64,000 nt of DNA. Source: an uncultured Candidatus Saccharibacteria bacterium. Lineage in GTDB: Bacteria; Patescibacteriota; Minisyncoccia; Phycocordibacterales; UBA9973. The DNA lies in the NCBI GenBank assembly GCA_964527235.1, contig CAZGNC010000002.1:14275-78274 (forward strand). The letters are read 5' to 3'. The translations under genes and the position numbers were made by a program. The notes under the pieces were generated by a model. It saw only the letters and a program-made list of their open reading frames with translations. It did no database searches and had not been told where the DNA came from. Positions 10,602 to 54,414 of this stretch are shown here, piece by piece; position 1 is the stretch's first letter, and the number at the start of each line of letters is the position of its first letter.

Positions 10602-10812
10602 TGTTCCCGATATTACTTCTAGCGTTCCGCTCGCAGAGAGCGGTAAAACATTTTCCCGAGATGCTCGGGTCAGCCCCTGTGAAGTGGTATTCCCTTGCTA
10701 GGAGAGAATAGCACCCATCCACGACCGTAGGCCCGTCGAGATGGTCTCCATTTTTACTAGAGTGGAGATTCTCTTTACTATCCACGGTCAGAGTTCATCC
10801 CGTGGTGCTACT

Positions 10813-11043
10813 TTACGACACCGGCCGGGAGTGAGCGATCGCGAACATCGCAGAGACCACTTCGGCCTGAAGCTCATCGAACTCCGGCTGCGCTGGTGCA
10901 CAGCCCATCAGGTGATGCGCGAGCCGTCTTTCGACGGCCGCGACAGTGTTCTGGTCGCTGACGGGAAACCCAGACAAGACCTGAACCGCAACCTGCTGCG
11001 AGACGACAGACGAACTCCTCTGCTGCGCTGGAAAACGGTACAT
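10813..11043 (-). CDS. GC-rich small ORF (76 aa) of unknown function, inside the rpsS/rplB intergenic insertion
   Basis: The ATG at 11043-11041 is preceded by AGGAGA 7 nt upstream and a near-consensus promoter. About 60% GC against about 40% in flanking genes. No recognisable family. Confidence 0.4.
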   Translation of the reverse strand: MYRFPAQQRSSSVVSQQVAVQVLSGFPVSDQNTVAAVERRLAHHLMGCAPAQPEFDELQAEVVSAMFAIAHSRPVS

Positions 11044-11091
11044 GCAAGTCTCCTGTGAAGAGCGGAGCCCGAAATTGGACCCTCTAAATTA

Positions 11092-11121
11092 GAGTATATC
11101 ACAAATAAACACAAAAGTCAA
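11092..11121 (-). promoter_or_regulatory. near-consensus sigma70 promoter (TTGACT, 17 nt, TGaTATACT) driving the GC-rich small ORF
   Basis: Minus strand: cgtaTTGACTtttgtgtttatttgtgaTATACTcta, with an extended -10 TG. Confidence 0.5.
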
Positions 11122-15873: not shown

Positions 15874-16245
15874 CTACACTGTGTCATCCGAGGGGGTTGT
15901 GATCAGCCCGAAGAATCCACGGATCTCCCCACCCAAGTCGACTTCATCATCCCCCTCATTTCTTCTAGGGACGATCAAGAGATTCGGGTCCTGACTATCA
16001 GGAACACTCTCCGTCTGCGATAGAAACACGACACGGATGTGCGGATGGTTCCTCCGAAGCTGGGCCAACTTACCCAGGTTCTGATTCCCCATCACGAGCG
16101 CCCCAACTAGTTGTCTGGTGTTGTCTGCCAGAAAATCGTCCAGACGATCTGCGGCTGGAACAGAAACGTCGACGCCGTTGAGAAGGTCAGAAAGAGAAAC
16201 CTCCCACTCGGAGTCAGACGACACCACCAGTATGCTCTTCTTCAT
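15874..16245 (-). CDS. GC-rich ORF (123 aa); CheY-like receiver-fold protein lacking the phospho-acceptor Asp (pseudo-receiver)
   Basis: Beta1 ILVVSSD, beta4 VVFLSQTES, beta5 LLIVPRR. Own promoter (TTGACA, 17 nt, TAATTT at 16311-16339) and SD GGGAGAG. About 58% GC. Confidence 0.35.
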   Translation of the reverse strand: MKKSILVVSSDSEWEVSLSDLLNGVDVSVPAADRLDDFLADNTRQLVGALVMGNQNLGKLAQLRRNHPHIRVVFLSQTESVPDSQDPNLLIVPRRNEGDDEVDLGGEIRGFFGLITTPSDDTV

Positions 16246-41681: not shown

Positions 41682-42260
41682 CTAATCCCCGTCTAGTATT
41701 TGCCAGAGGTGTAAAGTTAGCTCTGTGTAGCTACCAATGTGTGGCTCTGCAAGTTTCAACATTTGTTTTTCGTTGGGTAAATTTTTGAGATTAAATGCTT
41801 TCTGAAATCCTTTCTTTGTTCCCAGATCGCCTAGGGGTAAAACATTCTCGCGATTCAGAGCAAATATCAGGAACATATCAGCCGTCCATGGACCTATGCC
41901 CTTCACTTGCATCAAGTGCTCTTTGATATCCGCATCTGCCATCTTATGAAAATTTTTGGGATCTATAGTTTTATCTAAAAACTTTTCTGCTAAGTCTTTC
42001 AAGTAGCCAGATTTCTGCGGTGAAATGCCAGCATACTTTAAGTCAGAAATTGAGAAATTAAGATAAATTTCAGGGGTTGGTTTTTTCTTGCCGAAAAGTG
42101 CCATGAACTTTTTATATATTGCATCCCCTGCTTTGGTAGAAATCTGCTGATAAATTATCGAACTCGCTAAAGATAGAAAATAGTTCTTGCTGGGAGTTAT
42201 TTTGCGAAGTTTTTTCTTATTTATCTTTAATTTTTTAGACATAAAATTAGGCAAAAGCAT
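41682..42260 (-). CDS. HhH-GPD superfamily DNA glycosylase (AlkA / 3-methyladenine DNA glycosylase II-like)
   Basis: LMQVKGIGPWTADMFLIFAL...LPLGD (HhH-GPD with catalytic Asp). Confidence 0.7.
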   Translation of the reverse strand: MLLPNFMSKKLKINKKKLRKITPSKNYFLSLASSIIYQQISTKAGDAIYKKFMALFGKKKPTPEIYLNFSISDLKYAGISPQKSGYLKDLAEKFLDKTIDPKNFHKMADADIKEHLMQVKGIGPWTADMFLIFALNRENVLPLGDLGTKKGFQKAFNLKNLPNEKQMLKLAEPHIGSYTELTLHLWQILDGD

Positions 42261-42282
42261 TATAGCACAGACTTTTCTTTTA

Positions 42283-42311
42283 TTGACTAAAATCCTTTTT
42301 TGTTTTAATAT
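42283..42311 (+). promoter_or_regulatory. sigma70 promoter (TTGACT, 17 nt, TAATAT) for GC-rich cassette C
   Basis: Followed by SD GGGGAGG 6 nt before the ATG at 42347. Confidence 0.45.
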
Positions 42312-42346
42312 ATTTTCGGAAGCTCAACACTCACCGGGGAGGAAGC

Positions 42347-42547
42347 ATGAACGACATGCAGAGGGTGTTTGTAGTTGTGAAAATCAACACTAAATACCCC
42401 AAGAGGTGGTCAGTACGTGAAGAAATTCGTAGGATCACTGGTGTGAGTATTCCCTGGAAAGAGGGAGACTCTTACCGTTTCGACATCAAGAAGGGTGACG
42501 TCCGGAAGCTCGTCGACGCCGGCCTCAACGTGGAAGTGGTGGAATGA
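42347..42547 (+). CDS. GC-rich small ORF C1 (66 aa), unknown function
   Basis: Strong SD; about 52% GC. Stop overlaps the next start (ATGA). Confidence 0.4.
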   Translation: MNDMQRVFVVVKINTKYPKRWSVREEIRRITGVSIPWKEGDSYRFDIKKGDVRKLVDAGLNVEVVE

Positions 42548-42792
42548 CAGAAACAAGAGAGAAAGAGAAGCCTTTGTTGATCTTTGGGGGACACGTGGGC
42601 TTGAGCCAGGCCCAAGTAATCAGGATTCTGGACGAACTAGGTGTCCATCACCGAGCAACACCCTCATCGAACCTGTACCACGTCAGGGTGTCAGAGTCCA
42701 GCGACCTGAGCTGGATTGATCGGTTGCTGGAACGGGGTATCGACATTTCGCCGCCCGGCAAGATTCATCAGGTGCCAACGCCAAAGAGATAA
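42544..42792 (+). CDS. GC-rich small ORF C2 (82 aa), unknown function; translationally coupled to C1
   Basis: 4-nt overlap with C1, followed by a GC hairpin terminator (42821-42856). Confidence 0.4.
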   Translation: MTETREKEKPLLIFGGHVGLSQAQVIRILDELGVHHRATPSSNLYHVRVSESSDLSWIDRLLERGIDISPPGKIHQVPTPKR

Positions 42793-42820
42793 GGCGACTA
42801 GCACCTTCATCAAAAACGAA

Positions 42821-42856
42821 AGCGCCACCGAGATTCGGTTGGCGCTGTTTTTGTTT
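42821..42856 (+). terminator. rho-independent terminator of cassette C (agcgccaccgagattcggttggcgct plus T-run)
   Basis: 8-bp GC stem followed by gtttttgttt. Confidence 0.55.
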
Positions 42857-42863
42857 ATGGGTG

Positions 42864-42947
42864 TGCCCAGGGGGAGACTCGAACTCCCATGCCCTTGCGG
42901 GCGCTACCACCTCAAGGTAGTACGTCTACCAGTTTCGCCACCTGGGC
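42864..42947 (-). tRNA. tRNA-Leu (GAG), class II with a long variable arm
   Basis: Reverse complement gcccagg...anticodon loop uuGAGgu...variable arm...T-arm ggagttcgagtctcc...cctgggc a. Confidence 0.65.
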
Positions 42948-42970
42948 ATCGGGGGCATTACAATAAAAAA

Positions 42971-43375
42971 TTATTCAGCAGCTTGAGCCACTTCTTCTTT
43001 TTCTTCTACTTCAGGAGTATTGATAGAACGCATCTTTCGGCGAACATCTTTAACTGCTTTAGTTCGTATGTAGTAGAGCTTACTTCTTCGAGCGCGAGAC
43101 TTACGAACAAGCTCGATTTTATCAATCATAGGAGAGTATAGTGGGAAAATTCTTTCTACTCCAACACCAGAAGCGATACGGCGCACAGTGAAAGTTCCAC
43201 CCGCCTCTGTACCATGCTTGCGAGCTAGCACTGTACCCTCAAAAGCCTGGGTTCGAAATTTACCCTTTTCATCTTTAATCTTAGACCATACACGCACTGT
43301 GTCGCCGGACTGAAAATCAAGGCCTTTTCGCGCCTCGATATCTACTGGACTGAATTTGATTTTGTTTACTGGCAT
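42971..43375 (-). CDS. rplS: 50S ribosomal protein L19
   Basis: L19 motifs ([35 protein letters not shown]). Confidence 0.9.
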
Positions 43376-45936: not shown

Positions 45937-46962
45937 CTACAAAGATTCTTTTTTACCAATTTGTTTTTTCTCAGCAACCTCTAGGTAATGATTTATATTT
46001 GCTGCAGTTATTTCGTCCGGAGCAATGGTTGTATTATGCCTCAAACCCGCCATTACGCTTTTTTCTATTCTCTCTTCGTCTCCAACAGCTTTTATGATTC
46101 TAGCCAACTGGGAATCCGCTTCACTCTCATGCCCAGGAGGATACACCACCTCGAGTTCTCCTGAAATATAAGTAATGGGACACTCTGTGTTACGTATCTT
46201 TTCTAAAAGATGACCCCTGGACACCCTAGAACCCTCCGCCATTCTTTGTGCCAATCTATTAACAGCAAACGGGCTTTTAGTTTTTGGAATATATTTCTTT
46301 AAGCGATCTTCGTAATCTGTTTCACCAGAAGCTTTAAGTCTAGAAGCATATTCGATGTTGGTTTGAGCCCCAGAACCTAAAAATCTTGCAAACAATGCCG
46401 CAGCGTTTTCTTTTTCTTCAATCCCAGCAGGGTTTAATAACACCAGACTAGAAACCCTGTCTGGATATTTCTCAGCAAAAGTTGCCATGATTTCACTCCC
46501 CATAGAGTGTCCTATCAAATGAAATCGGGCTCCAGGATTTAATGCGACTTTATCTAAAAGTTGATTTATTACTTCGGCTTCATTGTCAAAATTATCTTTA
46601 TTAAAATAATTCTTAGATGGATCATCGGAATTACCATATCCAGGCAAAGACGGCATAATTACTTTTCTACCCTCACATGCTAAAGAGAAACCAAGCTCTG
46701 AGATCCCCTCCCAACCTGACCCAAAACCCGGCAGGAGAACTACAACATCTCCATCTTTATTTTCTAGTGATGCTACCGATATCTCCCTATAATCAATGCT
46801 TAGAGATTCACCTCCAACTTCAATATCGGCTTTTGTTTCTCTTTCTAGTTGTTCGCCAATTTCGTGGATAAATTTTGCACGACCTTCAAATGTCTCAGTT
46901 ATAGACTGATTTTCTCTTTTAAACACTTTAGTCGGCTGATTGGGGAAACCCTCATTTGGCAT
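45937..46962 (-). CDS. alpha/beta hydrolase fold protein
   Basis: GHSMGS nucleophile elbow. The start is chosen at MPNEGF because the longer ORF-track N-terminus reads through the tRNA-Val gene. Confidence 0.6.
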   Translation of the reverse strand: MPNEGFPNQPTKVFKRENQSITETFEGRAKFIHEIGEQLERETKADIEVGGESLSIDYREISVASLENKDGDVVVLLPGFGSGWEGISELGFSLACEGRKVIMPSLPGYGNSDDPSKNYFNKDNFDNEAEVINQLLDKVALNPGARFHLIGHSMGSEIMATFAEKYPDRVSSLVLLNPAGIEEKENAAALFARFLGSGAQTNIEYASRLKASGETDYEDRLKKYIPKTKSPFAVNRLAQRMAEGSRVSRGHLLEKIRNTECPITYISGELEVVYPPGHESEADSQLARIIKAVGDEERIEKSVMAGLRHNTTIAPDEITAANINHYLEVAEKKQIGKKESL

Positions 46963-47037
46963 GGTGCGCGGTGTAGGACTCGAACCTACGACCTTCCCGG
47001 TGTAAACGGGTTGCTCTACCAACTGAGCTAACCGCGC
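46962..47037 (-). tRNA. tRNA-Val (UAC) with encoded CCA
   Basis: Reverse complement gcgcggt ta gctc agttggta gagc a acccg uuUACac cggg...gtagg ttcgagt cctac accgcgc a cca. Confidence 0.7.
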
Positions 47038-50668: not shown

Positions 50669-50753
50669 GGAGGCGTCGCATAGTGGTTTAGTGCACCTGT
50701 CTTGAAAACAGGAGTACCGCAAGGTACCGTGAGTTCGAATCTCACCGCCTCCG
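50669..50753 (+). tRNA. tRNA-Ser (UGA), class II
   Basis: ggaggcg...anticodon loop cuUGAaa...long variable arm agtaccgcaaggtaccgt...gtgag ttcgaat ctcac cgcctcc g. Confidence 0.7.
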
Positions 50754-50788
50754 CTTGAAGTTTTTCAATATCAGAAATATACAAGGAC

Positions 50789-51574
50789 TTAGATAGAGTC
50801 TTCTTTAGACTTGAGTGCTTCCAGATACTTTTCCATACGTTGAATAAGTGTTCTCCCTCTCTTGCCACCCGGGATTAATTCAAGTACGTCTTTATGCTGA
50901 TCGGATAATTTCCAGTAACGTAATGGTTTTACATAGCGAGCTAGTAAATGTTCGGTAATAACGCTGCACACTTCGGTTGAAGACATTAGCATCATAAGAC
51001 CCATCGCTACGGTTTCTTGCTCTTTAGGATCATATAATCCACCTACACATAATGGAGTCGCCGATTTGTGCGGCATAAGGTGTAACACACTCACATGTGT
51101 AAACTTATCACTGAGTGCCCCGTAAAATTGAGCAACAATAGGATGAACTTTTTTCACCTCTTTTATACTGTCAGTTGAATCAAATTTTCCGGGGGTTTTA
51201 GTCAATAACTCAAACCTATCTTTGTTTGCAGCAATGTCATACGCCGTAGCAAATATCTCGAAAGCATTACGTACTAGCATATGTGGCTCTCTGGGATAGC
51301 CAGCTCTAAAAAGACTCAGTGCAGCAAGTAGCGTGTTTAGACCAGTCCAGGATAACACAAATGCATGGAACTCATTATCGGGAATCTTATCCTGATCAGG
51401 ACGGTTAATAACCTGGTATAGCTCGTTGTACGTGTCTGCAAAATCTTCTACAAGATCTTTCAGTTCATCAGCATAGTGTTTGTCGTAGGCTTCCGCAATT
51501 TTAGCCTCATCCTTAAGTGCAGCCCACACAGCATCTTTAGTAATCGGAGGCATAGTAGGTTCCATACATACCAT
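50789..51574 (-). CDS. hypothetical cytoplasmic protein (about 255 aa), unknown function, adjacent to tRNA-Ser
   Basis: No recognisable motifs. Acidic N-terminal region. Confidence 0.35.
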   Translation of the reverse strand: MVCMEPTMPPITKDAVWAALKDEAKIAEAYDKHYADELKDLVEDFADTYNELYQVINRPDQDKIPDNEFHAFVLSWTGLNTLLAALSLFRAGYPREPHMLVRNAFEIFATAYDIAANKDRFELLTKTPGKFDSTDSIKEVKKVHPIVAQFYGALSDKFTHVSVLHLMPHKSATPLCVGGLYDPKEQETVAMGLMMLMSSTEVCSVITEHLLARYVKPLRYWKLSDQHKDVLELIPGGKRGRTLIQRMEKYLEALKSKEDSI

Positions 51575-53269: not shown

Positions 53270-53341
53270 GCCCTCATAGTTCAATGGATAGAATGCGAGC
53301 TTGCGGAGTTTGCGATGTAGGTTCGATTCCTACTGAGGGCA
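53270..53341 (+). tRNA. tRNA-Arg (anticodon tentatively GCG; the anticodon stem needs two G-U pairs)
   Basis: gccctca ta gttc aatggata gaat g cgagc uuGCGga gtttg cgat gtagg ttcgatt cctac tgagggc a. Confidence 0.5.
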
Positions 53342-53415
53342 CAAAATAACAAAATACCCAGTTTCTGGGATTTTTAGAACTATAAAATATAATAAAAATT
53401 CCTCTCTACAGATAC

Positions 53416-53444
53416 TTGACTTTTTGAGTCGGTGGTGATATAAT
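53416..53444 (+). promoter_or_regulatory. consensus sigma70 promoter TTGACT, 17 nt, TGaTATAAT for the GC-rich collagen-like gene
   Basis: cTTGACTttttgagtcggtggtgaTATAATcac; then SD GAGGGGG 7 nt before the ATG at 53514. Confidence 0.55.
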
Positions 53445-53513
53445 CACGAAAGATCCTAAGTGGGGCACCCTGCCCTAATGAACCTTGATTTATGCCCTCC
53501 GAGGGGGCAAAAT

Positions 53514-54296
53514 ATGTGGCTGATCAAGATGCTAGCATTCTGCTTCCTTTGGGCCATCATGGCCGCAGAGGAAGGGCTCCGCCTAGTGGCGGACGCCCTG
53601 AAGGAGTCCTTCGGGACGGCGCTTCTGGGGAGGAAAAACGTACCGTTCTTGGTGTTGGCGCTCATCCTGAGCACAACCCAGCTCGAGGCGCAAGCACCCC
53701 GACGGACCGCAGACAACTCTGTAACCCCCCAGTGCAACCTGGGGACCGACTGGTCGGTCAACAAAAACCGCCCCGTTGCTTCCGACGAGAAGCTCTACCG
53801 CCTCGAAGGCGGTCCCGCCATCGTCGCCCAGCGCGAAGCACCCGGATCGACGCACATCGTCTACCGGCGATGCAATGTACCCCCAGGAACCGAAGCGTAC
53901 TGCAGCATCAGAGGCTGCTGGATCAAGGTCTGTGGCAACGACCTTGGTTCTCCTGAAGGATGGAAGTTCCCCATCGAAATACCGATGGGAGCGCCTGGAG
54001 TGAACGGGCGCGACGGGAAGGATGGACGAGATGGCCGTGATGGACAGATCGTCTACGCTCCCCCTGCATCGACCGCCCTAGTGCCAGACTTCGACGGACG
54101 ATACAAGGTCCGCGGGGATAGGGGCTTCTGGTGTTTCCGTGGTGCAGGTCAAGGTGCATTTTGCACCGCGATCGCCACCACAGCGGTCCTTGTGGCCAAG
54201 AACAACCTGCCACGAAAGGATGACGAGCCCAAGGGCGGCAAGCCCATCGTCGTAACCCTCCCCAACACAATCCTGATGGCGCTGTTGGGTCGATAA
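53514..54296 (+). CDS. GC-rich (about 58% GC) secreted protein with a short collagen-like Gly-X-Y run and several Cys; unknown function
   Basis: Hydrophobic N-terminus MWLIKMLAFCFLWAIMAA. GAPGVNGRDGKDGRDGRDGQ gives six triplets. The start is chosen at the SD-preceded ATG rather than the longer ORF-track start. Confidence 0.45.
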   Translation: MWLIKMLAFCFLWAIMAAEEGLRLVADALKESFGTALLGRKNVPFLVLALILSTTQLEAQAPRRTADNSVTPQCNLGTDWSVNKNRPVASDEKLYRLEGGPAIVAQREAPGSTHIVYRRCNVPPGTEAYCSIRGCWIKVCGNDLGSPEGWKFPIEIPMGAPGVNGRDGKDGRDGRDGQIVYAPPASTALVPDFDGRYKVRGDRGFWCFRGAGQGAFCTAIATTAVLVAKNNLPRKDDEPKGGKPIVVTLPNTILMALLGR

Positions 54297-54414
54297 CATC
54301 TTGCAGGAGGTTGAGTACTGGAAAGGACTCATCTTCCTGTACTCTTCAAAGTTATGAGAACAAAGTCATGATTTTGAAGAGTAAAATATTAGTTTTACTT
54401 TTAATTAAATTATT

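What the first reader, a model, noticed from the sequence alone, without database searches (positions are those of the whole stretch)
42283..42947. Two translationally coupled GC-rich small ORFs with own promoter and terminator immediately beside tRNA-Leu
ORFs of 66 and 82 aa overlap by ATGA. They are preceded by TTGACT, 17 nt, TAATAT and GGGGAGG. A GC hairpin terminator follows, 8 nt before the 3' end of tRNA-Leu(GAG). Small-size, coupled bicistrons next to a tRNA are typical of toxin-antitoxin or other addiction / defence modules, or of the cargo end of an integrated element. Neither protein matches a family I can recognise.
Basis: partly seen in the sequence, partly recalled or inferred. 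Interest (0 to 1): 0.55.

Follow-up and report, generated by a model that had tools for sequence, protein, structure and literature searches.

The report
Orphan small-protein cassette beside tRNA-Leu
A real two-gene operon for two tiny proteins with no known relatives sits as a foreign-looking insert next to a tRNA gene in a Nomurabacteria (candidate phyla radiation) genome; it occurs in only three closely related lineages, where it diverges and recombines far faster than its surroundings, and whether it is a toxin-antidote-like pair is unproven.

Summary
ORF1 (42347-42547, 66 aa) and ORF2 (42544-42792, 82 aa) overlap by ATGA. A TTGACT-17-TAATAT promoter and a GGGGAGG ribosome-binding site precede them. 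A strong hairpin terminator follows, 6-7 nt from the 3' end of tRNA-Leu(GAG).

Both ORFs are protein-coding: dN/dS is 0.2-0.3 with an excess of third-position changes. They belong to a cassette found in only three closely related Nomurabacteria lineages, with an extra upstream gene A in the other two. Two more distant relatives with the same gene order lack it.

Cassette GC3 is 0.53-0.64 against 0.30-0.39 in flanking genes. Two genomes whose flanks differ by dS 0.01-0.09 differ by dS 0.5-1.1 in the cassette. Site patterns show a recombination mosaic (p = 3e-14).

No homologue exists in any protein, family, phage, plasmid or defence library searched. ORF1 is confidently predicted as a generic ferredoxin-like fold, ORF2 weakly so.

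There is no integrase, no repeat of the tRNA end, no DNA-binding antitoxin fold and no toxin homology. It is an orphan accessory islet in a tRNA-flank hot spot. A toxin-antidote-like or immunity-like partner pair is the best guess, but only an inference.

The parts
42283..42311 (+). Sigma-70-like promoter: -35 TTGACT (42283-88), 17-nt spacer, -10 TAATAT (42306-11). It lies in the AT-rich divergent intergenic region shared with the HhH-GPD glycosylase gene.
   Evidence: 9/12 match. Both hexamers and the spacing are identical in L002 and L064, while the spacer differs at several positions. Function is inferred, not shown.
42312..42346 (+). 5' leader with ribosome-binding site GGGGAGG (42336-42), 4 nt before the ATG. 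The GC-rich insert starts here.
   Evidence: The leader TTTTCGGAAGCTCAACACTCACC is identical in L064, where it precedes gene A. So the window either lost gene A or the other lineages gained it.
42347..42547 (+). ORF1, the 'B' gene, 66 aa. It is a fast-evolving small protein with a confidently predicted ferredoxin-like beta-alpha-beta-alpha-beta fold. Invariant loop motif T-G-x4-W-K-x-G-D-S and C-terminal A-G-L-x-V.
42544..42792 (+). ORF2, the 'C' gene, 82 aa. It is translationally coupled to ORF1 (ATGA at 42544-47), more conserved, always basic and His-rich. Predicted with low confidence as a ferredoxin/RRM-like beta-alpha-beta-beta-alpha-beta fold with a disordered tail.
42811..42856 (.). Intrinsic terminator: G+C stem AGCGCCA/TGGCGCT with an inner CCGA/TCGG stem, flanked by CAAAAAC on one side and GTTTTTGTTT on the other. 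It can therefore terminate both the cassette (+) and the convergent tRNA-Leu transcript (-).
   Evidence: -27.8 kcal/mol, z = -4.1. It is nearly identical in L002/L001 and L064. Bidirectional use is inferred from the sequence.
42863..42947 (-). tRNA-Leu(GAG). Its 3' end abuts the cassette. It is 100% identical in the three cassette-bearing lineages. Its 3' flank varies in gene content among Nomurabacteria.
   Evidence: tRNA identities; different genes follow the tRNA in different relatives.

Best explanation
This is a lineage-restricted accessory islet of 0.55 kb here and about 0.8 kb in the two relatives. It was inserted between the HhH-GPD glycosylase gene and the 3' end of tRNA-Leu(GAG) in a small clade of Candidatus Nomurabacteria.

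Shown:
- One promoter, one leader and one terminator frame two translationally coupled genes (three in the relatives) for single-domain proteins of 66-82 aa.
- The genes are under purifying selection.
- Their codon usage is foreign to the host genome.
- They are absent from syntenic relatives.
- They diverge roughly ten times faster than the flanks.
- They exchange segments between lineages by homologous recombination.
- ORF1 has a confident ferredoxin-like fold. ORF2 has a weakly predicted one.

Inferred: the coupled products B (ORF1) and C (ORF2) act as a stoichiometric binding pair. C is conserved, always basic and carries invariant His/Arg/Ser residues, so it would be the active component, probably binding or cutting nucleic acid. 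B evolves fast, has no conserved charge and keeps one invariant loop (WKxGDS), so it would be the neutralising or partner protein. That makes it a toxin-antidote-like or immunity-like conflict module, whose diversity is maintained by recombination at a tRNA-flank hot spot.
For: Coding:
- dN/dS is 0.21-0.32.
- Differences by codon position are 21/13/30 for C and 9/7/17 for A.
- ATGA coupling is kept in all three lineages.

Insert:
- L014 and L016 keep the order L19 - tRNA-Leu - HhH-GPD - VKOR with only 190 and 25 nt between the tRNA and HhH-GPD, and carry no cassette.

Foreign composition:
- GC3 is 0.53-0.64 against 0.30-0.39 in the flanking genes. Long ORFs of the window average 0.38.

Accelerated and mosaic evolution:
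- The flanking genes of the L002-type lineage (L001/L002) and L064 have dS 0.01-0.09 and 98-100% aa identity. A, B and C have dS 0.5-1.08 and 80/52/74% aa identity.
- 88 of 102 informative flank sites group L002 with L064. In the middle of gene C, 27 sites group the window with L064 against 10 (Fisher p = 3e-14; identity profile).

Hot spot:
- Another small GC-rich ORF family occupies the same tRNA flank in L069 and L080.
- The genes after tRNA-Leu differ widely among relatives.

Partner-pair reading:
- The upstream gene evolves faster than the downstream one.
- B has pI 5.0-9.7, while C has pI 8.2-10.4 and a KR-rich tail in the relatives.
- Precedent exists for a type II pair in which toxin and antitoxin both have ferredoxin-like folds: VapW-VapD (PMC11980593).
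Against: - No homology to any toxin, antitoxin, immunity or defence family.
- No HTH, RHH or AbrB DNA-binding fold for autoregulation.
- The gene number varies between 2 and 3.
- Known toxin-antitoxin families are spread widely by horizontal transfer. This one is seen in only three related lineages. A word-indexed search of 5.8 billion protein clusters (both ORFs) and a full HMMER scan of 1.84 billion representatives (ORF2 only) found nothing else.
- In the window both B and C are basic, unlike the usual acidic antitoxin with basic toxin.
- B-C binding, toxicity and expression are all untested.
- The ORF2 model has low confidence (pLDDT 61).
Confidence: 0.35

Rival explanations
1. It is leftover cargo (a 'moron' or anti-defence-type genes) of a phage or integrative element that once used the tRNA-Leu 3' end as an attachment site. 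The mobility genes and att repeats have since been deleted. The small proteins act on an invader or on host defence rather than forming an addiction pair.
For: - Position at the 3' end of a tRNA, foreign GC3, own promoter and terminator, small fast-evolving ORFan genes in tandem.
- Other GC-rich, fast-diverging or strain-specific genes lie next to tRNA-Arg(gcg) and tRNA-Ser in the same window.
Against: - No repeat of the tRNA 3' end.
- No integrase or phage genes within about 8 kb.
- No match in IMG/VR contigs, INPHARED phages, PHROGs or BFVD.
- No HTH regulator of the kind that accompanies anti-CRISPR operons.
Confidence: 0.2
2. The cassette encodes lineage-specific small nucleic-acid-binding or adaptor proteins (RRM/ferredoxin-like) with an ordinary, non-conflict cellular role, for example RNA chaperoning or regulation. 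It simply happens to sit in a recombination-prone spot.
For: - C is always basic, with a KR-rich tail in the relatives.
- Purifying selection acts on all genes.
Against: - Pfam RRM models do not hit.
- B has no conserved charge.
- Tenfold faster divergence, mosaic recombination and foreign codon usage are unusual for a physiological regulator.
Confidence: 0.2
3. The ORFs are spurious. The GC-rich stretch is a structured non-coding RNA or non-functional foreign DNA.
For: - GC-rich islands in AT-rich genomes are often RNA genes.
- ORFs of 74-75 aa also occur in other frames of this stretch.
- Folding z-scores are mildly negative, -2.2 and -2.6.
Against: - No Rfam match even at E = 10.
- Substitutions are concentrated at third codon positions, dN/dS is 0.2-0.3, and GC2 < GC1 < GC3 in the window's ORF1 and ORF2.
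- The frames and the ATGA junction are preserved across lineages in which gene B has diverged beyond DNA alignment between the window and the relatives.
- AlphaFold gives pLDDT 88 for ORF1 from a two-sequence alignment.
Confidence: 0.03
4. It is a member of an already described type II toxin-antitoxin family (RelE/ParE, MazEF, HicAB, VapBC, VapXD/VapWD and the like) that has diverged beyond easy recognition.
For: Two small overlapping genes with their own promoter. The upstream gene is the more variable one.
Against: - Pfam, NCBIfam, PADLOC and PDB profile searches are empty.
- The predicted folds are not RelE, MazF, PIN or HicA folds, and no antitoxin DNA-binding domain is present.
- The MazE/AbrB lead failed in hhalign.
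Confidence: 0.03

Closest known systems
VapW-VapD (and VapX-VapD) type II toxin-antitoxin systems, Cas2-like ferredoxin-fold toxins (PMC11980593)
   Same: Adjacent small genes in one operon. The toxin, and in VapWD also the antitoxin, has a ferredoxin-like fold, so a pair of small ferredoxin-like proteins can form an addiction module.
   Different: - No sequence similarity to VapD or Cas2 (Pfam, NCBIfam and PADLOC scans are empty).
- The proteins here are shorter (66-82 aa) and lack the C-terminal dimerisation extension.
- The catalytic Asp at the end of strand 1 is not evident in B or C.
- Toxicity is untested.
tRNA-flanking genomic islands or islets (integration hot spots at tRNA 3' ends)
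   Same: It sits directly at the 3' end of a tRNA gene, has non-native base composition, is present in some relatives and absent in others, and the flank varies in content across the group.
   Different: It is only 0.55-0.8 kb. It has no integrase, no att direct repeat of the tRNA end and no mobility genes. Exchange appears to occur by homologous recombination between related lineages.
Tandem arrays of small fast-evolving ORFan genes in conflict loci (orphan immunity gene arrays, anti-CRISPR/anti-defence operons)
   Same: Small proteins without homologues, their own promoter, variable copy number, rapid divergence, recombination mosaics and foreign GC.
   Different: No cognate toxin or effector gene nearby, no HTH 'aca'-type regulator, no mobile-element context, and no match in the PADLOC or PHROG libraries.
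Single-domain ferredoxin-like / RRM-like small proteins (e.g. Hera helicase RNA-binding domain, ClpS, DUF2179, subtilisin pro-domain)
   Different: Sequence identity is 7-20%. No family-specific motifs (RNP1/RNP2, ClpS N-degron pocket, metal-binding CxxC) were found, and the matches are spread over dozens of unrelated families.

Membership tests
Type II toxin-antitoxin module (generic) | Two adjacent small genes co-transcribed, often overlapping | tested here: met
   ATGA overlap, single promoter and terminator, conserved in three lineages
Type II toxin-antitoxin module (generic) | Toxin belongs to a recognised toxin superfamily (RelE/ParE, MazF/CcdB, PIN, HicA, Doc/Fic, GNAT, VapD ...) | tested here: not met
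Type II toxin-antitoxin module (generic) | Antitoxin with a DNA-binding domain (RHH, HTH, AbrB, Phd) plus a toxin-binding region | tested here: not met
   ORF1 is confidently modelled as a compact ferredoxin-like domain. hhalign against MazE gives probability 0.15%.
Type II toxin-antitoxin module (generic) | Toxin inhibits growth and the antitoxin rescues by direct binding | not testable with these tools
   Needs expression assays and pull-downs. No multimer prediction was available.
Cas2/VapD-like ferredoxin-fold nucleases | Sequence or structure match to Cas2/VapD, with catalytic Asp at the end of strand 1 and a C-terminal dimerisation extension | tested here: not met
Integrated mobile element at a tRNA gene | Direct repeat of the tRNA 3' end marking the far boundary | tested here: not met
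   The 21-nt tRNA 3' end occurs only once in the window, even with up to 3 mismatches allowed.
Integrated mobile element at a tRNA gene | Integrase/recombinase or other mobility genes adjacent | tested here: not met
   The neighbours are housekeeping genes (VKOR, HhH-GPD, L19, RluA, glycolysis genes). Window-specific extra ORFs show no resemblance to recombinases on inspection; no family search was run on them.
Integrated mobile element at a tRNA gene | Non-native composition and presence/absence among relatives | tested here: met
   GC3 0.53-0.64 against 0.30-0.39. Absent from the syntenic loci L014 and L016.
Ankyrin repeat proteins | Match to the 33-residue ANK repeat profile over whole repeats | tested here: not met
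   The library hits were long ANK arrays matched 5-11 times by one 17-20 residue motif (iDRLLErGxDv). Pfam Ank models do not hit ORF2. hhalign against a consensus ANK protein gives probability 0.5%. AlphaFold predicts beta strands.
RRM (RNA recognition motif) domain | RNP1/RNP2 motifs and a Pfam RRM_1 match | tested here: not met
   No Pfam hit at E <= 10. There is only fold-level resemblance of a low-confidence model.
Known structured RNA families (Rfam 15) | Covariance-model match in 42100-43100 | tested here: not met
   Only tRNA-Leu matches. The other hits have E 0.35-0.55 and score far below gathering.

The most novel reading that the evidence does not exclude
A previously unseen toxin-antidote or immunity system specific to the candidate phyla radiation. 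It would be built from roughly 65-aa ferredoxin-like mini-proteins, with the neutraliser possibly a diverged paralogue of the effector, as in VapW-VapD. Diversity would be maintained by inter-lineage recombination in a tRNA-flank hot spot that needs no integrase.
Probability: 0.15. Interest if true: 0.55.

Novelty: new member of a known kind. Interest (0 to 1): 0.3.

Why it matters
If the pair proves to be a self-contained toxin-antidote or immunity module, it would add a new minimal protein family to the conflict systems of ultra-small episymbiotic bacteria, whose accessory genes are almost entirely uncharacterised.

It would also be a clean example of a strain-variable islet exchanged by homologous recombination rather than by a mobile element. 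Together with the other GC-rich or strain-specific genes next to tRNA-Arg and tRNA-Ser in this window, it suggests that tRNA flanks are where this reduced genome keeps its fast-changing genes.

As it stands it is a well-delimited ORFan operon of unknown function. That makes it a useful experimental target but not a surprise.

Tried and rejected
1. Structured RNA: Rfam at gathering threshold and at E <= 10 found only the tRNA. Whole-cassette folding z-scores are only -2.2 and -2.6.
2. Ankyrin repeats: suggested by DARPin hits at E = 0.24 and by six long repeat proteins in the full HMMER scan of 1.84 billion representatives. These are summed matches of a short motif repeated 5-11 times. One hit is a TPR protein and one carries a 'LVHHRVTPS' repeat. 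hhalign probability is 0.5%.
3. MazE/AbrB swapped-hairpin antitoxin: suggested by 'RWKEGDS..' resembling 'RWGNSPAVRIP'. hhalign probability is 0.15% and there is no Pfam hit.
4. Paralogy among the cassette proteins: B versus C is undetectable (E = 0.22). A versus B is only weak (E = 0.0038, probability 8.7%). So 'paralogous' is not established beyond a shared predicted topology.
5. Element boundary: the tRNA 3' end is not repeated anywhere in the window.
6. Phage or plasmid origin: no relatives in IMG/VR, INPHARED phages, PLSDB plasmids, PHROGs or BFVD.
7. More copies in metagenomes: the JGI metagenome scan with the C profile and with the terminator DNA found nothing.
8. Presence/absence variants within the window's own species: exact-protein look-ups of L19 and HhH-GPD returned only the window's own contigs.
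9. The Foldseek afdb50 library was unavailable.

Full report
**Anatomy**

- ORF1 is 42347-42547 (66 aa). ORF2 is 42544-42792 (82 aa). They overlap in ATGA.
- TTGACT (42283-88), a 17-nt spacer and TAATAT (42306-11) precede them.
- GGGGAGG at 42336-42 lies 4 nt before the ATG.
- After ORF2 there is a hairpin, AGCGCCA..TGGCGCT with an inner stem. It is flanked by CAAAAAC and GTTTTTGTTT and folds at -27.8 kcal/mol, z = -4.1. Because an A-tract precedes it and a T-tract follows, it can serve both the cassette and the convergent tRNA-Leu(GAG) at 42863-42947 (-).
- The T-run ends 6-7 nt from the tRNA 3' end.
- GC rises to 0.52-0.56 against about 0.40 for the window.
- Promoter-like hexamers are as common as chance in this AT-rich DNA. 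Only their conservation in relatives argues for function.

**Organism and neighbours**

The left neighbour is an HhH-GPD DNA glycosylase, transcribed divergently. The right neighbours are tRNA-Leu, ribosomal protein L19, a 567-aa zinc-ribbon protein and RluA. The 567-aa protein retrieves 80 loci from GTDB genomes labelled Candidatus Nomurabacteria, Paceibacterota or Patescibacteria. The window therefore comes from a candidate phyla radiation bacterium of that group.

**Distribution**

A word-indexed search of 5.8 billion protein clusters returned only ORF1 itself, and for ORF2 one relative (P0002, 68% local identity). A profile search added the orthologue of ORF1 from that second lineage (P0004, 32% identity).

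A full HMMER scan of 1.84 billion representatives with the ORF2 profile found only P0002 plus repeat-protein artefacts.

The contigs carrying P0002 and P0004 (L001-L003, L087) and one GTDB genome (L064, CAZUID010000004.1) have the cassette at exactly the same place. In those two lineages it has three genes:
- A, 66 aa, which is absent from the window.
- B, 67-69 aa, the orthologue of ORF1.
- C, 82 aa, the orthologue of ORF2.

B and C are again coupled by ATGA. The window's leader is identical to the one that precedes A in L064, so A was lost here or gained there.

Two more distant relatives, L014 and L016, keep the order L19 - tRNA-Leu - HhH-GPD - VKOR. They have only 190 and 25 nt between the tRNA and HhH-GPD and no cassette. 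The cassette is thus an insertion confined to a narrow sub-clade.

**Coding or not**

Rfam finds nothing but the tRNA. Folding z-scores for the whole cassette are modest. By contrast, pairwise comparisons show the following.
- dN/dS is 0.21-0.32.
- Differences are concentrated at third codon positions: C 21/13/30, A 9/7/17, B 25/14/30.
- In the window's two ORFs GC2 < GC1 < GC3; the order varies in the relatives' copies.
- The frames and the ATGA junction are preserved even where gene B no longer aligns at the DNA level between the window and the relatives.

These are protein-coding genes under purifying, though relaxed, selection.

**Foreign and fast**

Cassette GC3 is 0.53-0.64. The flanking genes have 0.30-0.39, and long ORFs of the window average 0.38.

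The L002-type and L064 genomes are nearly identical in the flanks: dS 0.01-0.09, and HhH-GPD, VKOR and L19 are 98-100% identical. In the cassette they differ by dS 0.5-1.08, with A, B and C at 80%, 52% and 74% aa identity (profile).

Informative sites in the flanks group L002 with L064 (88 of 102). In the leader and the middle of gene C (about 42600-42715) they group the window with L064, 27 against 10 (Fisher p = 3e-14). Cassette segments have therefore been exchanged between lineages by homologous recombination, independently of the genomic background.

**Hot spot**

The window holds no repeat of the tRNA 3' end. The surrounding genes, about 8 kb on each side, include no integrase or phage genes. 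No trace appears in viral, phage or plasmid collections.

Even so, the tRNA-Leu 3' flank varies across Nomurabacteria. L069 and L080 carry a different small GC-rich ORF family there (30% identity, E = 4e-7). L014 has a short GC-rich remnant.

**The proteins**

No Pfam, NCBIfam, PHROG, PADLOC or PDB sequence match was found for any of the five family members scanned, or for profiles of the A, B and C families.
- B keeps an invariant loop, T-G-x4-W-K-x-G-D-S, and the motif A-G-L-x-V, while the rest varies. Its pI ranges from 5.0 to 9.7.
- C is conserved over residues 8-65 and retains His17, His35, Arg37, His46, Ser41/42, Asp54 and Trp57. It is always basic and has a KR-rich tail in the relatives.
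- Leads to ankyrin repeats and to MazE/AbrB were tested and rejected.

**Interpretation**

What is shown: a real, self-contained, protein-coding ORFan operon. It is an accessory insert of foreign composition in a tRNA-flank hot spot, and it evolves and recombines much faster than the genome around it.

What is inferred: such behaviour, together with translational coupling and a faster-evolving upstream partner, is what conflict modules (toxin-antidote, immunity, anti-defence) typically show. The VapW-VapD system shows that two small ferredoxin-like proteins can form a type II pair (PMC11980593).

No defining feature of any known toxin-antitoxin family is met. The extremely narrow distribution is atypical for toxin-antitoxin genes. 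Binding, toxicity and expression are all untested. I put the partner-pair conflict reading at about 0.35. The main rivals are leftover phage or element cargo (0.2) and a lineage-specific nucleic-acid-binding function (0.2). Non-coding or housekeeping readings are essentially excluded.

**Verdict**

The finding is a new ORFan member of a familiar kind of locus, a strain-variable islet at a tRNA gene. It is of modest interest unless experiments show a new minimal toxin-antidote or immunity family.

Noticed in passing
window 53345-54330: A second GC-rich island (GC about 0.60, GC3 0.70) lies directly 3' of tRNA-Arg(gcg) at 53270-53342 (+). It holds a 278-aa ORF (53460-54296) with no Pfam hit. The relative L001 has a gene at the same spot, but only the C-terminal ~80 aa align (45% identity), and the DNA does not align between 53534 and 54234. 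It looks like another fast-diverging tRNA-flank gene.
   Followed up: partly
window 50789-51574 (-), beside tRNA-Ser(tga) 50669-50754: A 261-aa ORF lies in a ~1.2-kb segment present in the window but absent from the otherwise collinear relative L001. This is a strain-specific insertion next to a third tRNA.
   Followed up: no
window 45937-47022 (-), between tRNA-Arg(tct) and tRNA-Val(tac): A ~1-kb segment carries a 361-aa ORF whose sequence reads like an alpha/beta-hydrolase (by eye; no family search run). It does not align to the relative L001 at the DNA level.
   Followed up: no
window 10741-11114 and 15874-16245: Two further short GC-rich patches (GC 0.54-0.62, GC3 0.61-0.72). Their ORFs have no Pfam hit, and there is no Rfam hit. 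Their nature is unknown; they could be divergent RNA genes or other foreign inserts.
   Followed up: no
L069 8308-8526 (+) and L080 3613-3933 (+): A different small GC-rich ORF family (30% identity, E = 4e-7) sits immediately after the same tRNA-Leu in two other Nomurabacteria genomes. This suggests the tRNA-Leu 3' flank is a recurrent insertion site.
   Followed up: partly
L001 540-570 / L064 3690-3720 and L014 7855-7885: The relatives keep a second, ancestral-looking bidirectional terminator (AAAACCGGCCTAAGCCGGTTTTT) between the cassette terminator and tRNA-Leu. The window has lost it. The relatives also carry ~65 extra nt between tRNA-Leu and the L19 gene.
   Followed up: no
L001, L002, L003, L087 contig ends: Four independent metagenome contigs of the L002-type lineage end inside or next to the cassette. 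That would fit co-existing cassette variants breaking the assemblies. The window-type Logan contigs instead end inside the tRNA.
   Followed up: no
window 42863-42947: The whole-window Rfam scan at gathering threshold did not list tRNA-Leu(gag). It scores 49 bits, above the 29-bit cut-off, when the 1-kb region is scanned alone. This is a filter artefact to keep in mind for other negative Rfam results on the full window.
   Followed up: yes
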